Source: a virus
DNA: 64,000 nt
Reading direction: 5' to 3' (one strand)
Virus record (IMG/VR): IMGVR_UViG_3300030419_001484
Location: 9,795-73,794 of that record
The position numbers were made by a program, and so were the translations under genes. The notes beneath the pieces are model-generated. The model was given only the letters and a program-made list of their open reading frames with translations, was not told where the DNA came from and ran no database searches. Positions within the stretch are counted from its first letter, which is position 1, and every line of letters starts with the position of its first letter. Below, piece after piece: positions 17,660-21,869 of this stretch.

Positions 17660-17913
17660 TGTTAGATAAATTTTTTATAATAGTTACAATGGTCACTGTA
17701 AATCCAGAGTTAGGAACTGATCTATATGCATTTAAAAAACCATATGATACAAAAGAAGTTTGTGTAAAAAATTTAGAGTTAAATTATAATAAATACTTTA
17801 CAGCCGCATATAATAATTATAAAGGAAAACTAAGTCCAGATAAAGCATATTGTATATCTGGTGAACTATTAAAACAAGTATTCGAAGGTAACATAACAAG
17901 TAACGATATATGA
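17659..17913 (+). CDS. Small exported two-Cys protein
   Basis: Hydrophobic N-terminus, YDTKEVC...AYC. Confidence 0.55.
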   Translation: MLDKFFIIVTMVTVNPELGTDLYAFKKPYDTKEVCVKNLELNYNKYFTAAYNNYKGKLSPDKAYCISGELLKQVFEGNITSNDI

Positions 17914-18221
17914 TAACATTAACTGAAAACGCAAAAGAATATCTAACAGATATGGTATCCAAGTCAGATGATACATATGCAAGATTATCTGTCAAGGGTG
18001 GTGGTTGTGCTGGTTTCGAATACAAGTGGGAAACTACAGACACAACCGAAAAAGGAACACTCATAGATGATGTCTTGGTGTTAGATACTATGGCTGAGAT
18101 GTTTCTACTTGGTTGCACTGTGGACTACATAAAAGAATTTGGTGGTTCTTACTTAACAGTTAAGAATCCTAACGCACACTCCTCATGTGGGTGTGGAACA
18201 AGTTTCTCAATTAAGACTTGA
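17910..18221 (+). CDS. iscA: A-type Fe-S cluster carrier (IscA/HesB family)
   Basis: GGGCAGFEY and SSCGCGTSF. Confidence 0.9.
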   Translation: MITLTENAKEYLTDMVSKSDDTYARLSVKGGGCAGFEYKWETTDTTEKGTLIDDVLVLDTMAEMFLLGCTVDYIKEFGGSYLTVKNPNAHSSCGCGTSFSIKT

Positions 18222-18248
18222 CAAACGGAACGAATCATGTTATAAATA
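18218..18248 (+). promoter_or_regulatory. tmRNA promoter: sigma70-type with CGAATCA box, overlapping a late promoter
   Basis: TTGACA-N7-CGAATCA-N3-TATAAATA. Confidence 0.8.
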
Positions 18249-18319
18249 TAGTATAGTTCGTTGATACGGATTGAAAGATGGACAGGACTTGGGTGCGATA
18301 CCCAACACCTCCACCAAAC

Positions 18320-18434
18320 ACTCGTCCAGTACAACGCCTTTGTAGTCGTAATGCACATGGTAAATTACTCACGGCAGATCGAACACGAATGGTAAGACAT
18401 TTTAGGATTTATCTGGTGTGGCGACCAGACGAGT
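18320..18434 (+). ncRNA. Putative structured RNA inside the tmRNA intervening segment
   Basis: Closing ACTCGT/ACGAGT, four internal stems, complementary loops CGCC/GGCG. Confidence 0.55.
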
Positions 18435-18456
18435 ACCTCGCTAAAAGGAGATTAAT

Positions 18457-18525
18457 ATGATTTTAGATAATACAATAATGGGGGGTCAAGACGATGAAGA
18501 ACCCTCTAGTGCAAACAATAAGTAA
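18457..18525 (+). CDS. 22-aa ORF in tmRNA intervening segment
   Basis: AAGGAG RBS; MILDNTIMGGQDDEEPSSANNK. Confidence 0.35.
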   Translation: MILDNTIMGGQDDEEPSSANNK

Positions 18526-18610
18526 GTGGATGTTTAGAGCCTACATTGCATGGAGCATATGTGCAGACATCATAGTGATAGGTGGTATCATATACCTAAT
18601 CTTTTTTTAG
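18494..18610 (+). CDS. 38-aa membrane peptide in tmRNA intervening segment
   Basis: MKNPLVQTISKWMFRAYIAWSICADIIVIGGIIYLIFF; stop abuts tmRNA G1. Confidence 0.55.
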   Translation: MKNPLVQTISKWMFRAYIAWSICADIIVIGGIIYLIFF

Positions 18611-18810
18611 GGGGGTGAAATAGGATCGACTGACGTTGAATAGAAAAGTGGAGAACTATCGGTTTACCTCGTATCGGTTAAAAAAACTAAACGCAAACGA
18701 TGATTTTGCACCTGTAGATTACGCACTAGCTGCTTAATCGTACTGAGTTCGGTGGGTACTTGGAAACAGAAACCCACCACAGTTTCAGAGTTTCGCTGAC
18801 GGGCGAAAAC

Positions 18811-18995
18811 GTGTCGTGCAAGGAAGAGATTCTCACCAGAGGGTCGAACTTGATTAGTTAGAGGTGGTACTCAGGCATGGTTGCAGAAATGCGTTGTGTC
18901 ACATCAATCTACCGATTGGAACTAGGTTCTGAAAGTATGAAAGAATGGTATCTTGGTCTTTCAGTTGTAGGTGTTAACCTTAGTCCTACCGACAC
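18811..18995 (+). ncRNA. Putative ~185-nt structured ncRNA
   Basis: GTGTCG/CGACAC closing stem; internal GATTCTC/GAGGGTC, GAAA-capped hairpin, CTGAAAG/CTTTCAG, GTAGG/CCTAC; GC-rich and ORF-free. Confidence 0.6.
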
Positions 18996-19117
18996 AAATT
19001 AATGATGCCTATGCGAATAGGTTCGGTTGAAAAAAATCGGTAAGATCATTAAGGGTCACTACTTAATAAGTGCGTGTGGGGTCATGGTTAACCCCACATC
19101 TTATAAATGGAGTTATT

Positions 19118-19330
19118 ATGCAAAATACAAAGACGTTCTCACTTGAGATTGAAAAGATGGCCCAAGAAAAATCCATAACACACATGGATGCAGTTTTAGA
19201 ATATTGTAAGACAAAAGAATTAGAACCAGAGTCAGTTACAAGACTCATATCAAAAAGTCTAAAAGATAAGATAGAAGCAAACGCAAGAGATTTGAACTAT
19301 CTACCCAATCAAGCAAAGTTACCAATATAG
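19118..19330 (+). CDS. gp33: Late promoter transcription coactivator gp33
   Basis: FSLEIEK...MDAVLEYC...LISKSLKDKIEANA; synteny with gp59 and gp32. Confidence 0.85.
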   Translation: MQNTKTFSLEIEKMAQEKSITHMDAVLEYCKTKELEPESVTRLISKSLKDKIEANARDLNYLPNQAKLPI

Positions 19331-20120: not shown

Positions 20121-20911
20121 GAACGATAGTCTACGGAAACGGAAAGTCACGCCTGAAATGGAATGTGAATAATGGTTTGATACCAAACTCTGTTGTCACA
20201 TGGGGTTGTAACAGAATCTTTAATGGTAATGCAAAAATTGACAATCTTGTTTCCGTAGATTATCATGTGCAACATCTGATATACAAATCTGGATATGCAC
20301 ATGAGAATAAATGTTGGTTCAGTGATTGGAATATTCTACCAAGTAATGTTCCCTACATTGATATTACATTTGGTGGACAAAAACCTAATCTACCAATTAC
20401 AGAGAATGACAGAGGTGATAGACAAAACTTGGTAGTCAATGGTAAATTTACGAAACCAAATGAAGGATTATATATAACTTGGGTTGATGATGAGGACATG
20501 GTTGAAAGTATAGATTTTCCTAGAGAATGGAGTTCTGGAACAACTGCTATACACCTTGCGTGTCAGAATGGTGCAACAGAAGTATATCTCATGGGATTTG
20601 ATATTAGTGATGACCCAAGACATAACGTATATGAAAAAGAACAGAGTGAGTATCACTCACAAGTTTCTAACTTCAGTTTAAGACTTGACTGGGCTAGAGA
20701 ATTGAAAGTTGTATTTAATGAATTTAAAGATGTGCAATTTATATGGGCAGAACCAAATAAATCTATGAATAGATTTATGGAGTCATGTAATTCATCTGAT
20801 TTAAATGCACTTATAAATAAGTCAGTGACAGGTCACGATAGACTTATATTTGATAATGATAATTTAACATACGATACATACGAAAACATAAGGAGAAAAA
20901 TATGTCGTTAG
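20117..20911 (+). CDS. Conserved hypothetical protein, Maf/DUF115-like nucleotide-binding fold suspected
   Basis: YGNGKSR, WGCN, SSGTTAIHLA, VYLMGFD. Confidence 0.55.
   Translation: MRTIVYGNGKSRLKWNVNNGLIPNSVVTWGCNRIFNGNAKIDNLVSVDYHVQHLIYKSGYAHENKCWFSDWNILPSNVPYIDITFGGQKPNLPITENDRGDRQNLVVNGKFTKPNEGLYITWVDDEDMVESIDFPREWSSGTTAIHLACQNGATEVYLMGFDISDDPRHNVYEKEQSEYHSQVSNFSLRLDWARELKVVFNEFKDVQFIWAEPNKSMNRFMESCNSSDLNALINKSVTGHDRLIFDNDNLTYDTYENIRRKICR
20812..20819 (+). promoter_or_regulatory. T4-type late promoter upstream of gp32
   Basis: TATAAATA. Confidence 0.55.
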
Positions 20912-21786
20912 ATACGCTAAAGAGAAGTAATTCTCTAGATAAATTACTCAACGCAGTAAAAGAGGACAATGCACCTCAAGAGAAAAAATCATACATTGAT
21001 GAAAGACTATGGAAACCAGAACTGGATAAATCTGGGAATGGTTATGCAGTTATTCGTTTTCTTCCATCACCAGAGGGTGAGGACTTGCCTTGGGCGAAAG
21101 TTTGGAATCATGCATTTCAAGGCCCAACAGGTCAATGGTATATTGAAAACTCACTTACAACAATCGGTCAGAAAGACCCTGTGTCAGAGTACAACTCAAA
21201 GTTGTGGAACTCTGGTGTAGAGTCTGACAAAGAGATTGCAAGGAAACAGAAAAGGAAACTACAATACTTTTCTAACATTCTTGTAGTGAGTGACCCAAAA
21301 CACCCAGAGAACGAAGGTAAAGTATTTCTGTTTAGATACGGAAAGAAAATCTTTGATAAAATGATGGAAGCGATGCAACCAGCATTTGAAGATGAAACAC
21401 CTATCAATCCATTTGATTTTTGGGAAGGTGCAGACTTCAAACTAAAAATCCGAAAGGTAGATGGTTTCTGGAACTATGATAAATCAGAGTTCGCAGCTAC
21501 ATCACCTATCGCAGATGATGAGTCTAAAATTGAAACTATTTGGAAATCACAGTATTCTCTTGCAGAGAAACTTGATGCAAGTAACTTCAAATCTTATGAT
21601 GAGTTATCTACTCGTTTTCATGCAGTGATTTCTGGTACTACCAAAGTTGGTAACGTATCTGAAGAGATGGATGATGAACCGATTGCAACACCAGTTGTTG
21701 ATACTAAACCAGTGGAGTCACCTGTAACCTCAAAAGAGGAAGAGGATGACACTATGGATTATTTTTCAAAACTCGCAAACGGATAA
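20902..21786 (+). CDS. gp32: Single-stranded DNA-binding protein gp32
   Basis: GNGYAVIRFLP, WYIENSLTT, FDFWEGADFKLKI, acidic tail. Confidence 0.95.
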   Translation: MSLDTLKRSNSLDKLLNAVKEDNAPQEKKSYIDERLWKPELDKSGNGYAVIRFLPSPEGEDLPWAKVWNHAFQGPTGQWYIENSLTTIGQKDPVSEYNSKLWNSGVESDKEIARKQKRKLQYFSNILVVSDPKHPENEGKVFLFRYGKKIFDKMMEAMQPAFEDETPINPFDFWEGADFKLKIRKVDGFWNYDKSEFAATSPIADDESKIETIWKSQYSLAEKLDASNFKSYDELSTRFHAVISGTTKVGNVSEEMDDEPIATPVVDTKPVESPVTSKEEEDDTMDYFSKLANG

Positions 21787-21793
21787 TGGTTTC

Positions 21794-21869
21794 GCTGGTG
21801 TAGCTCAATTGGTAGAGCAACTGATTTGTAATCAGTAGGTTGGGAGTTCGAGTCTCTTCACCAGCACCA
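21794..21869 (+). tRNA. tRNA-Thr (anticodon TGT)
   Basis: Cloverleaf GCTGGTG...TTCGAGT...CACCAGC-A-CCA; anticodon loop TTTGTAA. Confidence 0.95.

What the first reader, a model, noticed from the sequence alone, without database searches (positions are those of the whole stretch)
18218..18778. Phage two-piece tmRNA whose 294-nt intervening segment carries cargo (a structured RNA and two ORFs)
Seen: the acceptor piece ends CCA at 18316 and the coding piece starts GGGGGTG at 18611 (G3.U70 intact, tag ANDDFAPVDYALAA). The spacer 18317-18610 holds a folded RNA, a 22-aa ORF with AAGGAG RBS and a 38-aa membrane-peptide ORF whose TAG ends exactly at position -1 of the tmRNA. Established: permuted tmRNAs occur in Alphaproteobacteria, usually with a short discarded spacer removed by tRNA-processing nucleases including RNase P; Caulobacter tmRNA affects replication timing. 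Inference: tmRNA maturation releases a precisely ended cargo RNA or mRNA, so the normally discarded spacer is used as an expression cassette. No smpB is seen in the window, so host SmpB is presumably used.
Basis: partly seen in the sequence, partly recalled or inferred. Interest (0 to 1): 0.85.

Follow-up and report, generated by a model that had tools for sequence, protein, structure and literature searches.

The report
Phage tmRNA spacer carrying conserved cargo
In this uncultured marine T4-like phage, the spacer normally cut out and discarded from a two-piece ribosome-rescue RNA (tmRNA) holds two conserved modules: a structured RNA of an undescribed family and a selected gene for a 38-residue membrane peptide, so a "throw-away" part of a stable RNA is very probably also a messenger.

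Summary
Rfam finds a permuted alpha-type tmRNA: acceptor piece 18255-18316, coding piece 18611-18781, tag ANDDFAPVDYALAA. The 294-nt intervening segment (IVS) is 18317-18610.

All three cargo items pass comparative tests:
- **Structured RNA (18317-18437).** It belongs to a family absent from Rfam. About 98% of pair cells are paired, 19 of 27 pairs show compensatory changes, and a pseudoknot covaries. Elsewhere the family lies in the 5' UTR of an 81-aa gene, beside tRNAs, or alone in tmRNA spacers.
- **38-aa ORF.** It has at least 222 relatives in viral contigs and pN/pS of 0.16. Of 91 copies, 76 sit inside a tmRNA spacer, 3 just upstream of the tmRNA promoter, and 8 are free-standing.
- **22-aa ORF.** It is a conserved overlapping leader ORF whose product is not conserved.

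Spacer copies are closed by a helix. In the window it buries the leader SD, the leader AUG and the stop codon. I therefore think translation occurs on the nascent precursor, not on the released spacer. That step is inferred, not shown.

Phage two-piece tmRNAs are already published (Melnitz, PMC9004378). I found no paper describing protein-coding spacer cargo. Earlier notes of this scan report the same phenomenon on other DNA (65 notes, at least 50 genomes). I class it as a new variant of a known kind, interest 0.65.

The parts
18218..18246 (+). Sigma-70-type early promoter: TTGACA (18218-18223), 17-nt spacer, TGn-TATAAA (18241-18246)
   Evidence: Read from sequence. The same TTGACA-N17-TATAAA(T) stands before the acceptor piece in L088, L121 and L069. 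The RF01849 model aligns over it. The simple scan skipped it only because it demands T at -10 position 6.
18255..18316 (+). tmRNA acceptor piece (T-arm, 3' acceptor strand, encoded CCA)
   Evidence: RF04321 at 100.5 bits and RF01849 at 92.8 bits.
18317..18610 (+). Intervening segment (IVS), 294 nt
   Evidence: Lies between the CCA and G1.
18317..18437 (+). Structured RNA of an undescribed family. P1 is 18320-18326 with 18428-18434; also P2, a variable P3, P4 with loop GUAAGA, P5 with loop GUGGCG, and a CGCC/GGCG pseudoknot
   Evidence: CM R1 scores 113 bits here. Covariation is shown. There is no Rfam match.
18441..18461 (+). 5' strand of the cassette-closing helix; contains the SD AAGGAG (18445-18450) and the ORF1 AUG (18457-18459)
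   Evidence: Present in the MFE and centroid folds. Across the family the duplex averages -11.2 kcal/mol against -5.3 for shuffles.
18457..18525 (+). ORF1, a 22-aa overlapping leader ORF
   Evidence: A leader ORF is present in 49 of 51 distinct spacer versions and 7 of 7 free-standing versions. ORF2 is always in the +1 frame. The N-terminus is not conserved.
18494..18610 (+). ORF2, a 38-aa peptide with a C-terminal transmembrane helix and an invariant WSICAD motif; stop TAG at 18608-18610
   Evidence: At least 222 relatives. pN/pS is 0.16-0.17 in frame against 1.4 and 3.8 in the other frames. Hydropathy reaches 2.2 over residues 18-38.
18587..18610 (+). 3' strand of the cassette-closing helix (end of ORF2 plus its stop codon)
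18611..18781 (+). tmRNA coding piece; tag reading frame 18693-18737 (ANDDFAPVDYALAA*)
18791..18999 (+). manA RNA motif directly after the tmRNA
   Evidence: RF01745 at 66.1 bits, cut-off 55.2. RNA-run contigs join it to the coding piece.
19070..19330 (+). gp33-like late-transcription coactivator gene, the next gene of the unit
   Evidence: PF16805 at 1.2e-17 and phrog_254. Melnitz has the same neighbourhood (PMC9004378).

Best explanation
This is a functional-looking, alpha-type two-piece tmRNA gene of an uncultured marine T4-like (pelagimyophage or Melnitz-like) phage. Its excised spacer has been colonised by two independent, stem-closed modules. One early sigma-70 promoter (18218-18246) most likely makes a single precursor: acceptor piece, structured RNA, leader ORF plus membrane-peptide gene, coding piece, manA RNA, and onward to the gp33-like gene. 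While the spacer is still being transcribed, the strong SD at 18445-18450 is free. A ribosome translates the leader ORF, which opens the start region of the overlapping 38-aa gene, so a short burst of peptide is made. Once the end of the spacer is transcribed, three helices form: the 21-bp closing helix (18441-18461 with 18587-18610), P1 of the structured RNA, and the 7-bp acceptor stem. Together they make a three-way arrangement that brings CCA and G1 together. tRNA-processing nucleases (RNase P at 18610/18611, 3' trimming at 18316) then give the two-piece tmRNA, which works with host SmpB. The excised spacer has its SD, AUG and stop buried, so it is probably translationally silent. Shown here: gene identity, selection on the peptide, conservation of the leader ORF, conservation of the closing helix, and covariation of the RNA. 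Inferred: single precursor, co-transcriptional translation, coupling between the two ORFs, and processing sites. The peptide's role is unknown. My guess is a low-dose, early-expressed membrane effector of the moron type, not strictly tied to tmRNA because free-standing copies exist.
For: tmRNA identity. No room for a separate promoter: in typical relatives the 159-nt spacer starts with AAAGGAG 2 nt after CCA and ends with TGA+T before G1. The peptide is a real gene: pN/pS is 0.17 in frame against 1.4 and 3.8 out of frame, with entropy by codon position 0.38/0.13/0.80; spacer copies alone give 0.16; there are at least 222 relatives; 8 copies are free-standing with their own promoter, and several of these are followed by a hairpin and a T-run that look like a terminator. 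The leader ORF is present in 49/51 and 7/7 versions, always at the +1 offset. The closing helix is specific to spacer copies: -11.2 against -5.3 kcal/mol, with C-G/U-A/U-G variation at one pair; it is absent from free-standing copies; it appears in the window's MFE and centroid folds together with the acceptor stem and P1. The cassette is dispensable for the tmRNA: near-identical tmRNAs carry only the RNA motif in the spacer (L252/L261; an RNA-run contig shows the same joint). The slot is general: 9 of 12 non-family viral spacers of 180 nt or more are at least 72% filled by a sense ORF (p <= 0.005), and the forward ORF is longer than the reverse in 31 cases against 11. A metatranscriptome contig bridges the spacer into the coding piece (X2, 18383-18664; weak, because DNA carry-over is possible). 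Published statements that permuted tmRNA is made as one precursor and cut by tRNA-processing enzymes: PMC11915505 and PMC9004378.
Against: There is no direct evidence of transcription start, RNA ends, translation or peptide. The RNA runs were available only as contigs, which cannot show ends and may contain DNA. Whole-region and single-element folds are not more stable than shuffles (z = -0.85 and -0.44). A weak promoter-like site (CAGACA-16-TATCAT, 18564-18591) lies inside ORF2 at a conserved position. The published analogue, the Coxiella 23S rRNA IVS ORF, appears not to be translated in vivo (PMC4990558 abstract). No SmpB was found, but the record is only about 48% complete.
Confidence: 0.75

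Rival explanations
1. The two tmRNA pieces are transcribed separately. The acceptor piece and the cassette form one transcript, and an internal promoter within the 3' part of ORF2 drives the coding piece. The 'spacer' would then be an ordinary gene lying between two RNA genes.
For: A promoter-like site lies at 18564-18591 (9 of 12 matches, with TG). Its -10-like hexamer sits at the same ORF position in 31 of 41 relatives and is a perfect TATAAT in some of them.
Against: The mean promoter score (8.29) is no higher than after synonymous-codon shuffling (8.34 +/- 0.09; 144 of 200 shuffles reach it). The match is therefore explained by the Gly-Ile-Ile codons. Promoter-like sites in the region are not enriched (8 against 4.6 +/- 2.6). 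Relatives without the cassette have only 9 nt between the RNA motif and G1. An RNA-run contig bridges the junction. The literature describes permuted tmRNA as made from a single precursor.
Confidence: 0.08
2. The spacer ORFs are untranslated passengers, like the Coxiella 23S IVS ORF. On this view the spacer is a selfish or neutral insertion tolerated because it is excised.
For: The spacer is dispensable for the tmRNA (L252/L261). The SD and AUG are buried in the closing helix. In the Coxiella analogue S23p appears not to be made in vivo.
Against: Purifying selection acts on the 41 distinct spacer copies themselves (pN/pS 0.16, against >1 in the other two frames over the whole family). The strong SD and a start codon are kept in 49 of 51 versions. 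There are 36 distinct peptides, all with an invariant WSICAD core.
Confidence: 0.07
3. Cargo and tmRNA are functionally coupled (a stronger version of the first reader's idea). A ribosome terminating at the stop that abuts G1 gates acceptor-stem formation and RNase P access. Alternatively, the RNase P product, an mRNA ending at its stop codon, is a built-in trans-translation substrate. The upstream structured RNA may act as a ligand or condition sensor for this switch.
For: The stop codon lies 0-1 nt from G1 in all 76 spacer copies. The stop is part of the closing helix. The gene also sits directly beside the tmRNA gene when it is outside the spacer (L069, L121, L179). In most other phages the RNA motif lies 14 nt before a start codon, as a cis-regulator would.
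Against: Eight copies are free-standing with no tmRNA within 3 kb. Unrelated ORFs in other spacers end 1-15 nt from G1 without a fixed rule. The RNA motif also occurs with no ORF behind it (L252/L261) and next to tRNAs. Homology alone explains the constant stop position within this family.
Confidence: 0.15

Closest known systems
Phage-encoded two-piece (permuted) tmRNAs of marine myophages: OM43 phage Melnitz, pelagimyophages (Buchholz et al. 2022, PMC9004378)
   Same: An alpha-type permuted ssrA behind an early promoter, followed by a structured RNA and the late-transcription coactivator gene. The phages are marine and T4-like. The only DNA match among cultured phages is Pelagibacter phage Mosig.
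   Different: That paper says nothing about the content of the intervening segment ('intervening' occurs 0 times). It reports a glnA-type riboswitch after ssrA, whereas Rfam here calls manA RNA. Neither ORF2 nor the new RNA motif was found in 50,697 cultured-phage records.
Alphaproteobacterial permuted tmRNA (Rfam RF01849; general model RF04321; tmRNA database paper PMC11915505)
   Same: Gene order, tRNA-like domain, G3-U pair, resume codon region, and an ANDxFA...ALAA-type tag.
   Different: The RF01849 consensus spacer is about 50 nt, and most of the 294 nt here align as an insertion. The database paper singles out one spacer with a tRNA-Ala gene and one with a repetitive element, and mentions no protein-coding spacer ('orf' occurs 0 times).
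Intervening sequences of bacterial 23S rRNA carrying the S23p ORF (Coxiella burnetii; PMC4990558)
   Same: An ORF sits inside a stem-closed segment that is excised from a stable-RNA precursor.
   Different: The host RNA is different (23S helix 45, not tmRNA), and the protein is unrelated (no Pfam hit for ORF2 above cut-off). S23p appears not to be made in vivo, whereas ORF2 shows clear purifying selection in place.
hok/mok-type type I toxin mRNAs (from my own knowledge, not tested by homology)
   Same: A small hydrophobic peptide; an overlapping upstream leader ORF with the strong SD; long-range 5'-3' pairing that buries the translation start.
   Different: There is no sequence relationship and no antisense RNA is shown. 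The one minus-strand promoter-like site (18489 to 18460) lies in unconserved sequence. The 5'-3' pairing is absent from free-standing copies. Toxicity is untested.
Small stable RNAs co-transcribed and co-processed with tRNAs in the phage T4 tRNA cluster (species 1 and 2 RNAs; from my own knowledge)
   Same: The new structured RNA repeatedly abuts tRNA or tmRNA ends: 2 nt after tRNA-Glu or a one-piece tmRNA, and 2-9 nt before tRNA-Trp or tRNA-Leu. tRNA-processing cuts would therefore define its ends.
   Different: No homology was tested. Most copies lie 14 nt upstream of a protein start, which is more typical of a cis-regulator.

Membership tests
Permuted (two-piece) tmRNA, alpha type (RF04321 / RF01849) | Covariance-model score above the curated cut-off, with the acceptor piece upstream of the coding piece | tested here: met
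   100.5 bits (cut-off 47) and 92.8 bits (cut-off 50), both with full model coverage.
Permuted (two-piece) tmRNA, alpha type (RF04321 / RF01849) | 7-bp acceptor stem with a G3-U wobble (alanine identity) and an encoded CCA | tested here: met
   GGGGGTG (18611-18617) pairs with CACCTCC (18306-18312), followed by ACCA.
Permuted (two-piece) tmRNA, alpha type (RF04321 / RF01849) | Tag reading frame with a hydrophobic C-terminal degron and a stop | tested here: met
   18693-18737 reads ANDDFAPVDYALAA*. The same tag occurs in relatives L229 and L252.
Permuted (two-piece) tmRNA, alpha type (RF04321 / RF01849) | Single precursor cut into two base-paired pieces by tRNA-processing enzymes | not testable with these tools
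   Only Logan contigs of RNA runs were available. One contig bridges the spacer and the coding piece, but no ends are visible.
Permuted (two-piece) tmRNA, alpha type (RF04321 / RF01849) | SmpB partner available | tested here: inconclusive
   No PF01668 match in the 73.8-kb record, which is about 48% complete. Host SmpB is presumed.
Protein-coding gene (ORF2 small membrane peptide family) | Purifying selection in the reading frame only | tested here: met
   pN/pS is 0.17 (0.16 in spacer copies) against 1.45 and 3.84 in the shifted frames.
Protein-coding gene (ORF2 small membrane peptide family) | Occurs as an independent gene in other contexts | tested here: met
   Eight copies have their own promoter and SD, and several of these are followed by a terminator-like hairpin. 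Three lie just upstream of the tmRNA promoter.
Protein-coding gene (ORF2 small membrane peptide family) | Membership of a described protein family | tested here: not met
   Pfam gives only DUF2542 at 18 bits, below the cut-off of 25. PHROGs gives E = 0.2. ESM Atlas returns only 'hypothetical protein' clusters.
Structured RNA family (new motif, model R1) | Base pairs maintained by compensatory change | tested here: met
   Viral set: 98.5% paired, 19 of 27 pairs compensatory, 0 of 500 shuffles, slid controls 33-38%. Metagenome set: 97.8% paired, covariation score 0.649 against 0.213, 0 of 500 shuffles. Caveat: both alignments are fitted to the model.
Structured RNA family (new motif, model R1) | Match to any Rfam 15 family | tested here: not met
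   The E <= 10 scans of the window region and of L232 give only RAGATH-12 at 14.8 bits (cut-off 75) and a tRNA.
23S-rRNA-IVS S23p-type element | ORF homologous to S23p, within an rRNA helix | tested here: not met
   No Pfam match of that family, and the host RNA is tmRNA. It is an analogue only.
hok/mok-like type I toxin-antitoxin | Cis-encoded antisense RNA against the leader start; toxicity of the peptide | not tested
   Only an unconserved minus-strand promoter-like match exists. There is no expression or toxicity data.

The most novel reading that the evidence does not exclude
The spacer is not merely a parking slot but a regulatory device. Translation of a peptide gene whose stop codon abuts tmRNA nucleotide G1, preceded by a sensor-like structured RNA, competes with acceptor-stem formation. 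It would then set when the phage's tmRNA matures. Conversely, RNase P cleavage would create a stop-terminal mRNA that the tmRNA system itself handles. This would be a direct mechanistic link between translation status and tmRNA biogenesis.
Probability: 0.15. Interest if true: 0.85.

Novelty: new variant of a known kind. Interest (0 to 1): 0.65.

Why it matters
The intervening segment of permuted tmRNA genes is treated as discarded filler. Here it is a conserved expression slot. In hundreds of marine viral contigs it holds a selected membrane-peptide gene, and in this lineage also a well-supported structured RNA that no database describes.

This matters in four ways:
- It blurs the line between stable-RNA genes and mRNAs.
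- It explains why tmRNA finders such as ARAGORN miss these genes.
- It flags a class of small phage proteins that gene callers and annotators overlook.
- It gives two concrete experimental handles: a small peptide with an invariant WSICAD motif, and a compact pseudoknotted RNA with riboswitch- or ribozyme-like conservation, both in abundant ocean phages.

Tried and rejected
- **ARAGORN** does not report the tmRNA.
- **Single-sequence folding.** Folding of the 5' element and of the whole spacer is no better than shuffles, so thermodynamics alone gives no support.
- **Rfam E <= 10 scans.** They give only noise in the spacer: RAGATH-12 at 14.8 bits, Mu-gpT-DE at 13.4 bits.
- **First DNA pattern.** TTGTAGTCGYAATGCA returned only chance matches.
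- **ORF2 database searches.** PHROGs, Pfam and ESM Atlas are uninformative. tblastn against cultured phages finds nothing. The RNA motif is also absent there.
- **Cellular genomes.** Only two MAG contigs hold ORF2, probably mis-binned phage DNA. No host origin was found.
- **Internal promoter.** The match is explained by codon content.
- **Minus-strand promoter-like site** (18489 to 18460). It lies in unconserved sequence and I did not pursue it.
- **Free-standing copies** lack the closing helix, so I rejected the idea that the helix belongs to the cassette itself.
- **RNA-run contigs.** Stretches without cover and depth differences cannot be interpreted.
- **Original papers.** The two-piece tmRNA papers PMC16621 and PMC516066 are not held.
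- **Other copies.** No other copy of the 126-nt element exists in the phage record.
Full report
**1. What is in the sequence**

The window is part of a 73.8-kb IMG/VR viral record estimated to be 48% complete. It has 34.8% G+C and T4-like genes around the finding:
- an Fe-S biogenesis (IscA/HesB-like) gene at 17910-18221;
- a gp33-like late-transcription coactivator at 19070-19330.

The only DNA match among 50,697 cultured phages is Pelagibacter phage Mosig, over the manA RNA part.

Rfam calls a permuted tmRNA. RF04321 covers 18255-18737 at 100.5 bits, and RF01849 (alpha type) covers 18214-18781 at 92.8 bits. It also calls a manA RNA at 18791-18999. ARAGORN misses the tmRNA.

- The acceptor strand CACCTCC+ACCA ends at 18316.
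- GGGGGTG begins at 18611, with G3 opposite T.
- The tag frame 18693-18737 reads ANDDFAPVDYALAA*.
- A near-consensus extended -10 promoter (TTGACA-17-TGnTATAAA, 18218-18246) precedes the gene. It recurs at the same place in relatives.
- The spacer (IVS) is 18317-18610, 294 nt.

No SmpB gene is in the record.

**2. The 38-aa ORF is a real gene**

A scan of IMG/VR for the conserved start of the coding piece gave 119 viral contigs, with spacers of 4-500 nt. In many of them the 3' 170 nt of our spacer is conserved, and it is conserved as protein. A peptide-pattern scan found at least 222 relatives.

Measures of selection on 46 distinct 38-codon sequences:

| Measure | In frame | Shifted frames |
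|---|---|---|
| Entropy by codon position 1/2/3 | 0.38 / 0.13 / 0.80 | not computed |
| pN/pS | 0.17 | 1.45 and 3.84 |

For the 41 distinct copies that lie inside spacers, pN/pS is 0.16, both inside and outside the closing helix.

The peptide has a polar or amphipathic N-terminus, an invariant W-S-I-C-A-D core and a C-terminal transmembrane stretch (Kyte-Doolittle 2.2). It belongs to no described family. It is essentially absent from cellular genomes: only 2 small MAG contigs among 185,579 species genomes.

**3. Where the gene sits**

Of 91 occurrences in the loci held:
- 76 lie inside a permuted-tmRNA spacer;
- 4 more abut a coding piece at a contig end or where my pattern for the acceptor piece failed;
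- 3 lie immediately upstream of the tmRNA promoter (L069, L121, L179; L121 is the closest homologue at 87% identity);
- 8 are free-standing with their own promoter, and several of these are followed by a terminator-like hairpin.

In the typical relative the spacer is 159 nt. It runs CCA, then AAAGGAG, the leader ORF, the peptide ORF, TGA, T, then G1. The cassette fills the spacer completely and leaves no room for its own promoter. The acceptor piece is therefore the 5' leader of the cassette's mRNA. This is a direct reading of the sequence.

**4. The 22-aa ORF is a leader ORF**

An ORF starts 4-10 nt after the GGAG/GGAA core and overlaps the start of the peptide gene. It is present in 49 of 51 distinct spacer versions and 7 of 7 free-standing versions. 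The peptide gene is always in the +1 frame relative to it.

Its non-overlapping N-terminus varies freely in sequence and length. The conserved G-[DG]-x-D-E-E-P-S-S part is explained by the peptide gene's own SD and first codons. In the window's fold, that second SD pairs with codons 3-5 of the peptide gene (18479-18486 with 18501-18508).

I infer translational coupling: what matters is that the leader is translated, not what it encodes. This is not shown.

**5. The 'folded RNA' is a member of an undescribed structured-RNA family**

Our spacer is longer than usual because 18317-18442 is inserted between the CCA and AAAGGAG. On its own it folds no better than shuffles (z = -0.44).

Two pattern scans found relatives. 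A covariance model built from six copies then found 35 matches (25 distinct) in viral loci and 59 (40 distinct) in marine metagenome contigs.

The structure is:
- P1, 18320-18326 with 18428-18434;
- P2 (YCC/GGR);
- a variable hairpin P3;
- P4 with loop GUAAGA;
- P5 with loop GUGGCG, whose GGCG pairs with an upstream CGCC. This becomes GGCC/GGCC in two lineages.

| Set | Cells paired | Compensatory pairs / covariation score | Shuffles reaching it | Slid controls |
|---|---|---|---|---|
| Viral | 98.5% | 19 of 27 pairs | 0 of 500 | 33-38% |
| Metagenome | 97.8% | score 0.649 against 0.213 | 0 of 500 | 31-40% |

Caveat: both alignments are fitted to the model. Rfam 15 has no match, and cultured phages have none.

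Contexts among about 68 distinct copies:
- 22 lie in the 5' UTR of an 81-aa gene of no known family; where no tRNA intervenes, the motif ends 14 nt before its start codon.
- About 11 abut a tRNA.
- A few start 2 nt after a one-piece tmRNA.
- About 17 lie in permuted-tmRNA spacers. Some are alone (L252, L261, L317: motif, then 9 nt, then G1). At least 14 contigs, including the window, L229, L231 and L286, have the motif followed by the peptide cassette.

So the composite spacer is a stable arrangement of a lineage. The two modules are independent. An RNA-run contig shows the cassette-less joint as well (X1).

**6. Stem-closed architecture**

In spacer copies the SD region (AAAGGAGAYUAR) pairs with the last codons of the peptide gene (YUARUCUUYUUU). 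The mean duplex energy is -11.2 kcal/mol against -5.3 for shuffled partners, and one pair varies as C-G, U-A or U-G. Free-standing copies lack this pairing.

In the window the helix is 18441-18461 with 18587-18610 (14 + 7 bp). It buries the SD, the leader AUG and the stop codon. The MFE and centroid folds place it next to P1 of the RNA motif and the 7-bp acceptor stem. Each module is therefore closed by its own helix, which keeps CCA and G1 close despite the 294 nt between them.

I read this as the price of admission to the spacer, since tmRNA folding must still work. A side effect is that it would silence the excised spacer.

**7. Mechanism proposed, and rivals**

My best reading (confidence 0.75) has four steps:
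- One precursor is made from the early promoter.
- A co-transcriptional burst of leader-coupled peptide synthesis occurs.
- The helices then close.
- RNase P and 3' trimming produce the two-piece tmRNA, which works with host SmpB.

An internal promoter for the coding piece is not supported. The promoter-like site inside ORF2 scores no better than synonymous-codon shuffles.

Untranslated-passenger status, as reported for the Coxiella 23S IVS ORF (PMC4990558), conflicts with the selection seen in spacer copies.

A tighter functional coupling, in which a ribosome at the stop codon gates RNase P or a stop-terminal mRNA becomes a trans-translation substrate, is possible but unsupported. Free-standing copies and cassette-less tmRNAs argue that it is not obligatory.

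The slot is general. Among non-family viral spacers of 180 nt or more, 9 of 12 are at least 72% filled by a sense-strand ORF (p <= 0.005 against shuffles), and many of these ORFs are hydrophobic.

**8. Comparison with what is known**

Phage two-piece tmRNAs are published. Melnitz and pelagimyophages were described, 53 two-piece tmRNAs were counted among cultured phages, and 17 of 47 Melnitz-like contigs carried one (PMC9004378). The tmRNA itself is therefore not new.

That paper does not discuss the spacer. The 2025 tmRNA database paper mentions only a tRNA-Ala gene and a repetitive element in spacers (PMC11915505). My literature searches found no description of protein-coding spacers.

Earlier notes of this scan report the same phenomenon on other DNA: 65 notes in at least 50 genomes. 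They are not independent evidence, but I re-tested their main claims here.

What this window adds:
- the composite spacer with a new structured-RNA family;
- the conserved leader-ORF arrangement;
- the contrast between spacer copies and free-standing copies of the same gene.

**9. Verdict**

It is a new variant of a known kind, with interest 0.65.

Noticed in passing
window 18791-18999: A manA RNA motif (RF01745, 66 bits) directly follows the tmRNA and precedes the gp33-like gene. Buchholz et al. report a glnA-type glutamine riboswitch at the equivalent place in Melnitz. RNA-run contigs join the coding piece to this motif in three studies.
   Followed up: partly
L167, L171, L187 (tmRNA spacers); also L093, L047, L161: A second family of small spacer ORFs (33-35 aa, ending ...NCFxANYRRKCNxxYDDLCM) sits between the CCA and the peptide cassette, or alone in other spacers.
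   Followed up: no
L144 spacer (118 nt before ORF2): A hairpin element with perfect inverted repeats is inserted into the SD region and flanked by a duplicated GGAGATTAGA. It looks like a miniature mobile insertion with a target-site duplication. L148 has a ~220-nt insertion with a similar AAAGGAGATT duplication.
   Followed up: no
L248 / L257 (and L281, L298, L302): The new structured RNA starts 2 nt after the CCA end of a one-piece (standard) tmRNA and is followed by tRNA-Lys. The motif therefore associates with tmRNA 3' ends in unrelated phages too.
   Followed up: partly
L245, L254, L239 and about 20 others, 14 nt downstream of the RNA motif: A conserved 73-81-aa gene (starting MSVDNTTTQENDK..., Cys-rich, no Pfam hit) is the most common downstream neighbour of the motif. 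It is the best candidate for a regulated gene if the RNA is a cis-regulator.
   Followed up: partly
L019 (499-nt spacer), L020, L021, L050, L090, L074, L078: Other long viral tmRNA spacers are 72-95% filled by unrelated ORFs of 63-120 aa, several with predicted membrane helices.
   Followed up: partly
window 18489 to 18460, minus strand: A promoter-like site (TTGACC-18-TAAAAT, 10 of 12) points antisense across the leader ORF start. It would give a Sok-like antisense RNA, but the sequence under it is not conserved in relatives.
   Followed up: partly
L121 1102-1805: In the closest homologue of ORF2 (87% identity) the modules are rearranged: the peptide gene lies upstream of the tmRNA promoter and the structured RNA downstream of the tmRNA, both outside the spacer.
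   Followed up: partly
window 21794-21869: A tRNA-Thr(UGU) gene lies just after the gp32-like ssDNA-binding protein gene (20902-21786).
   Followed up: no
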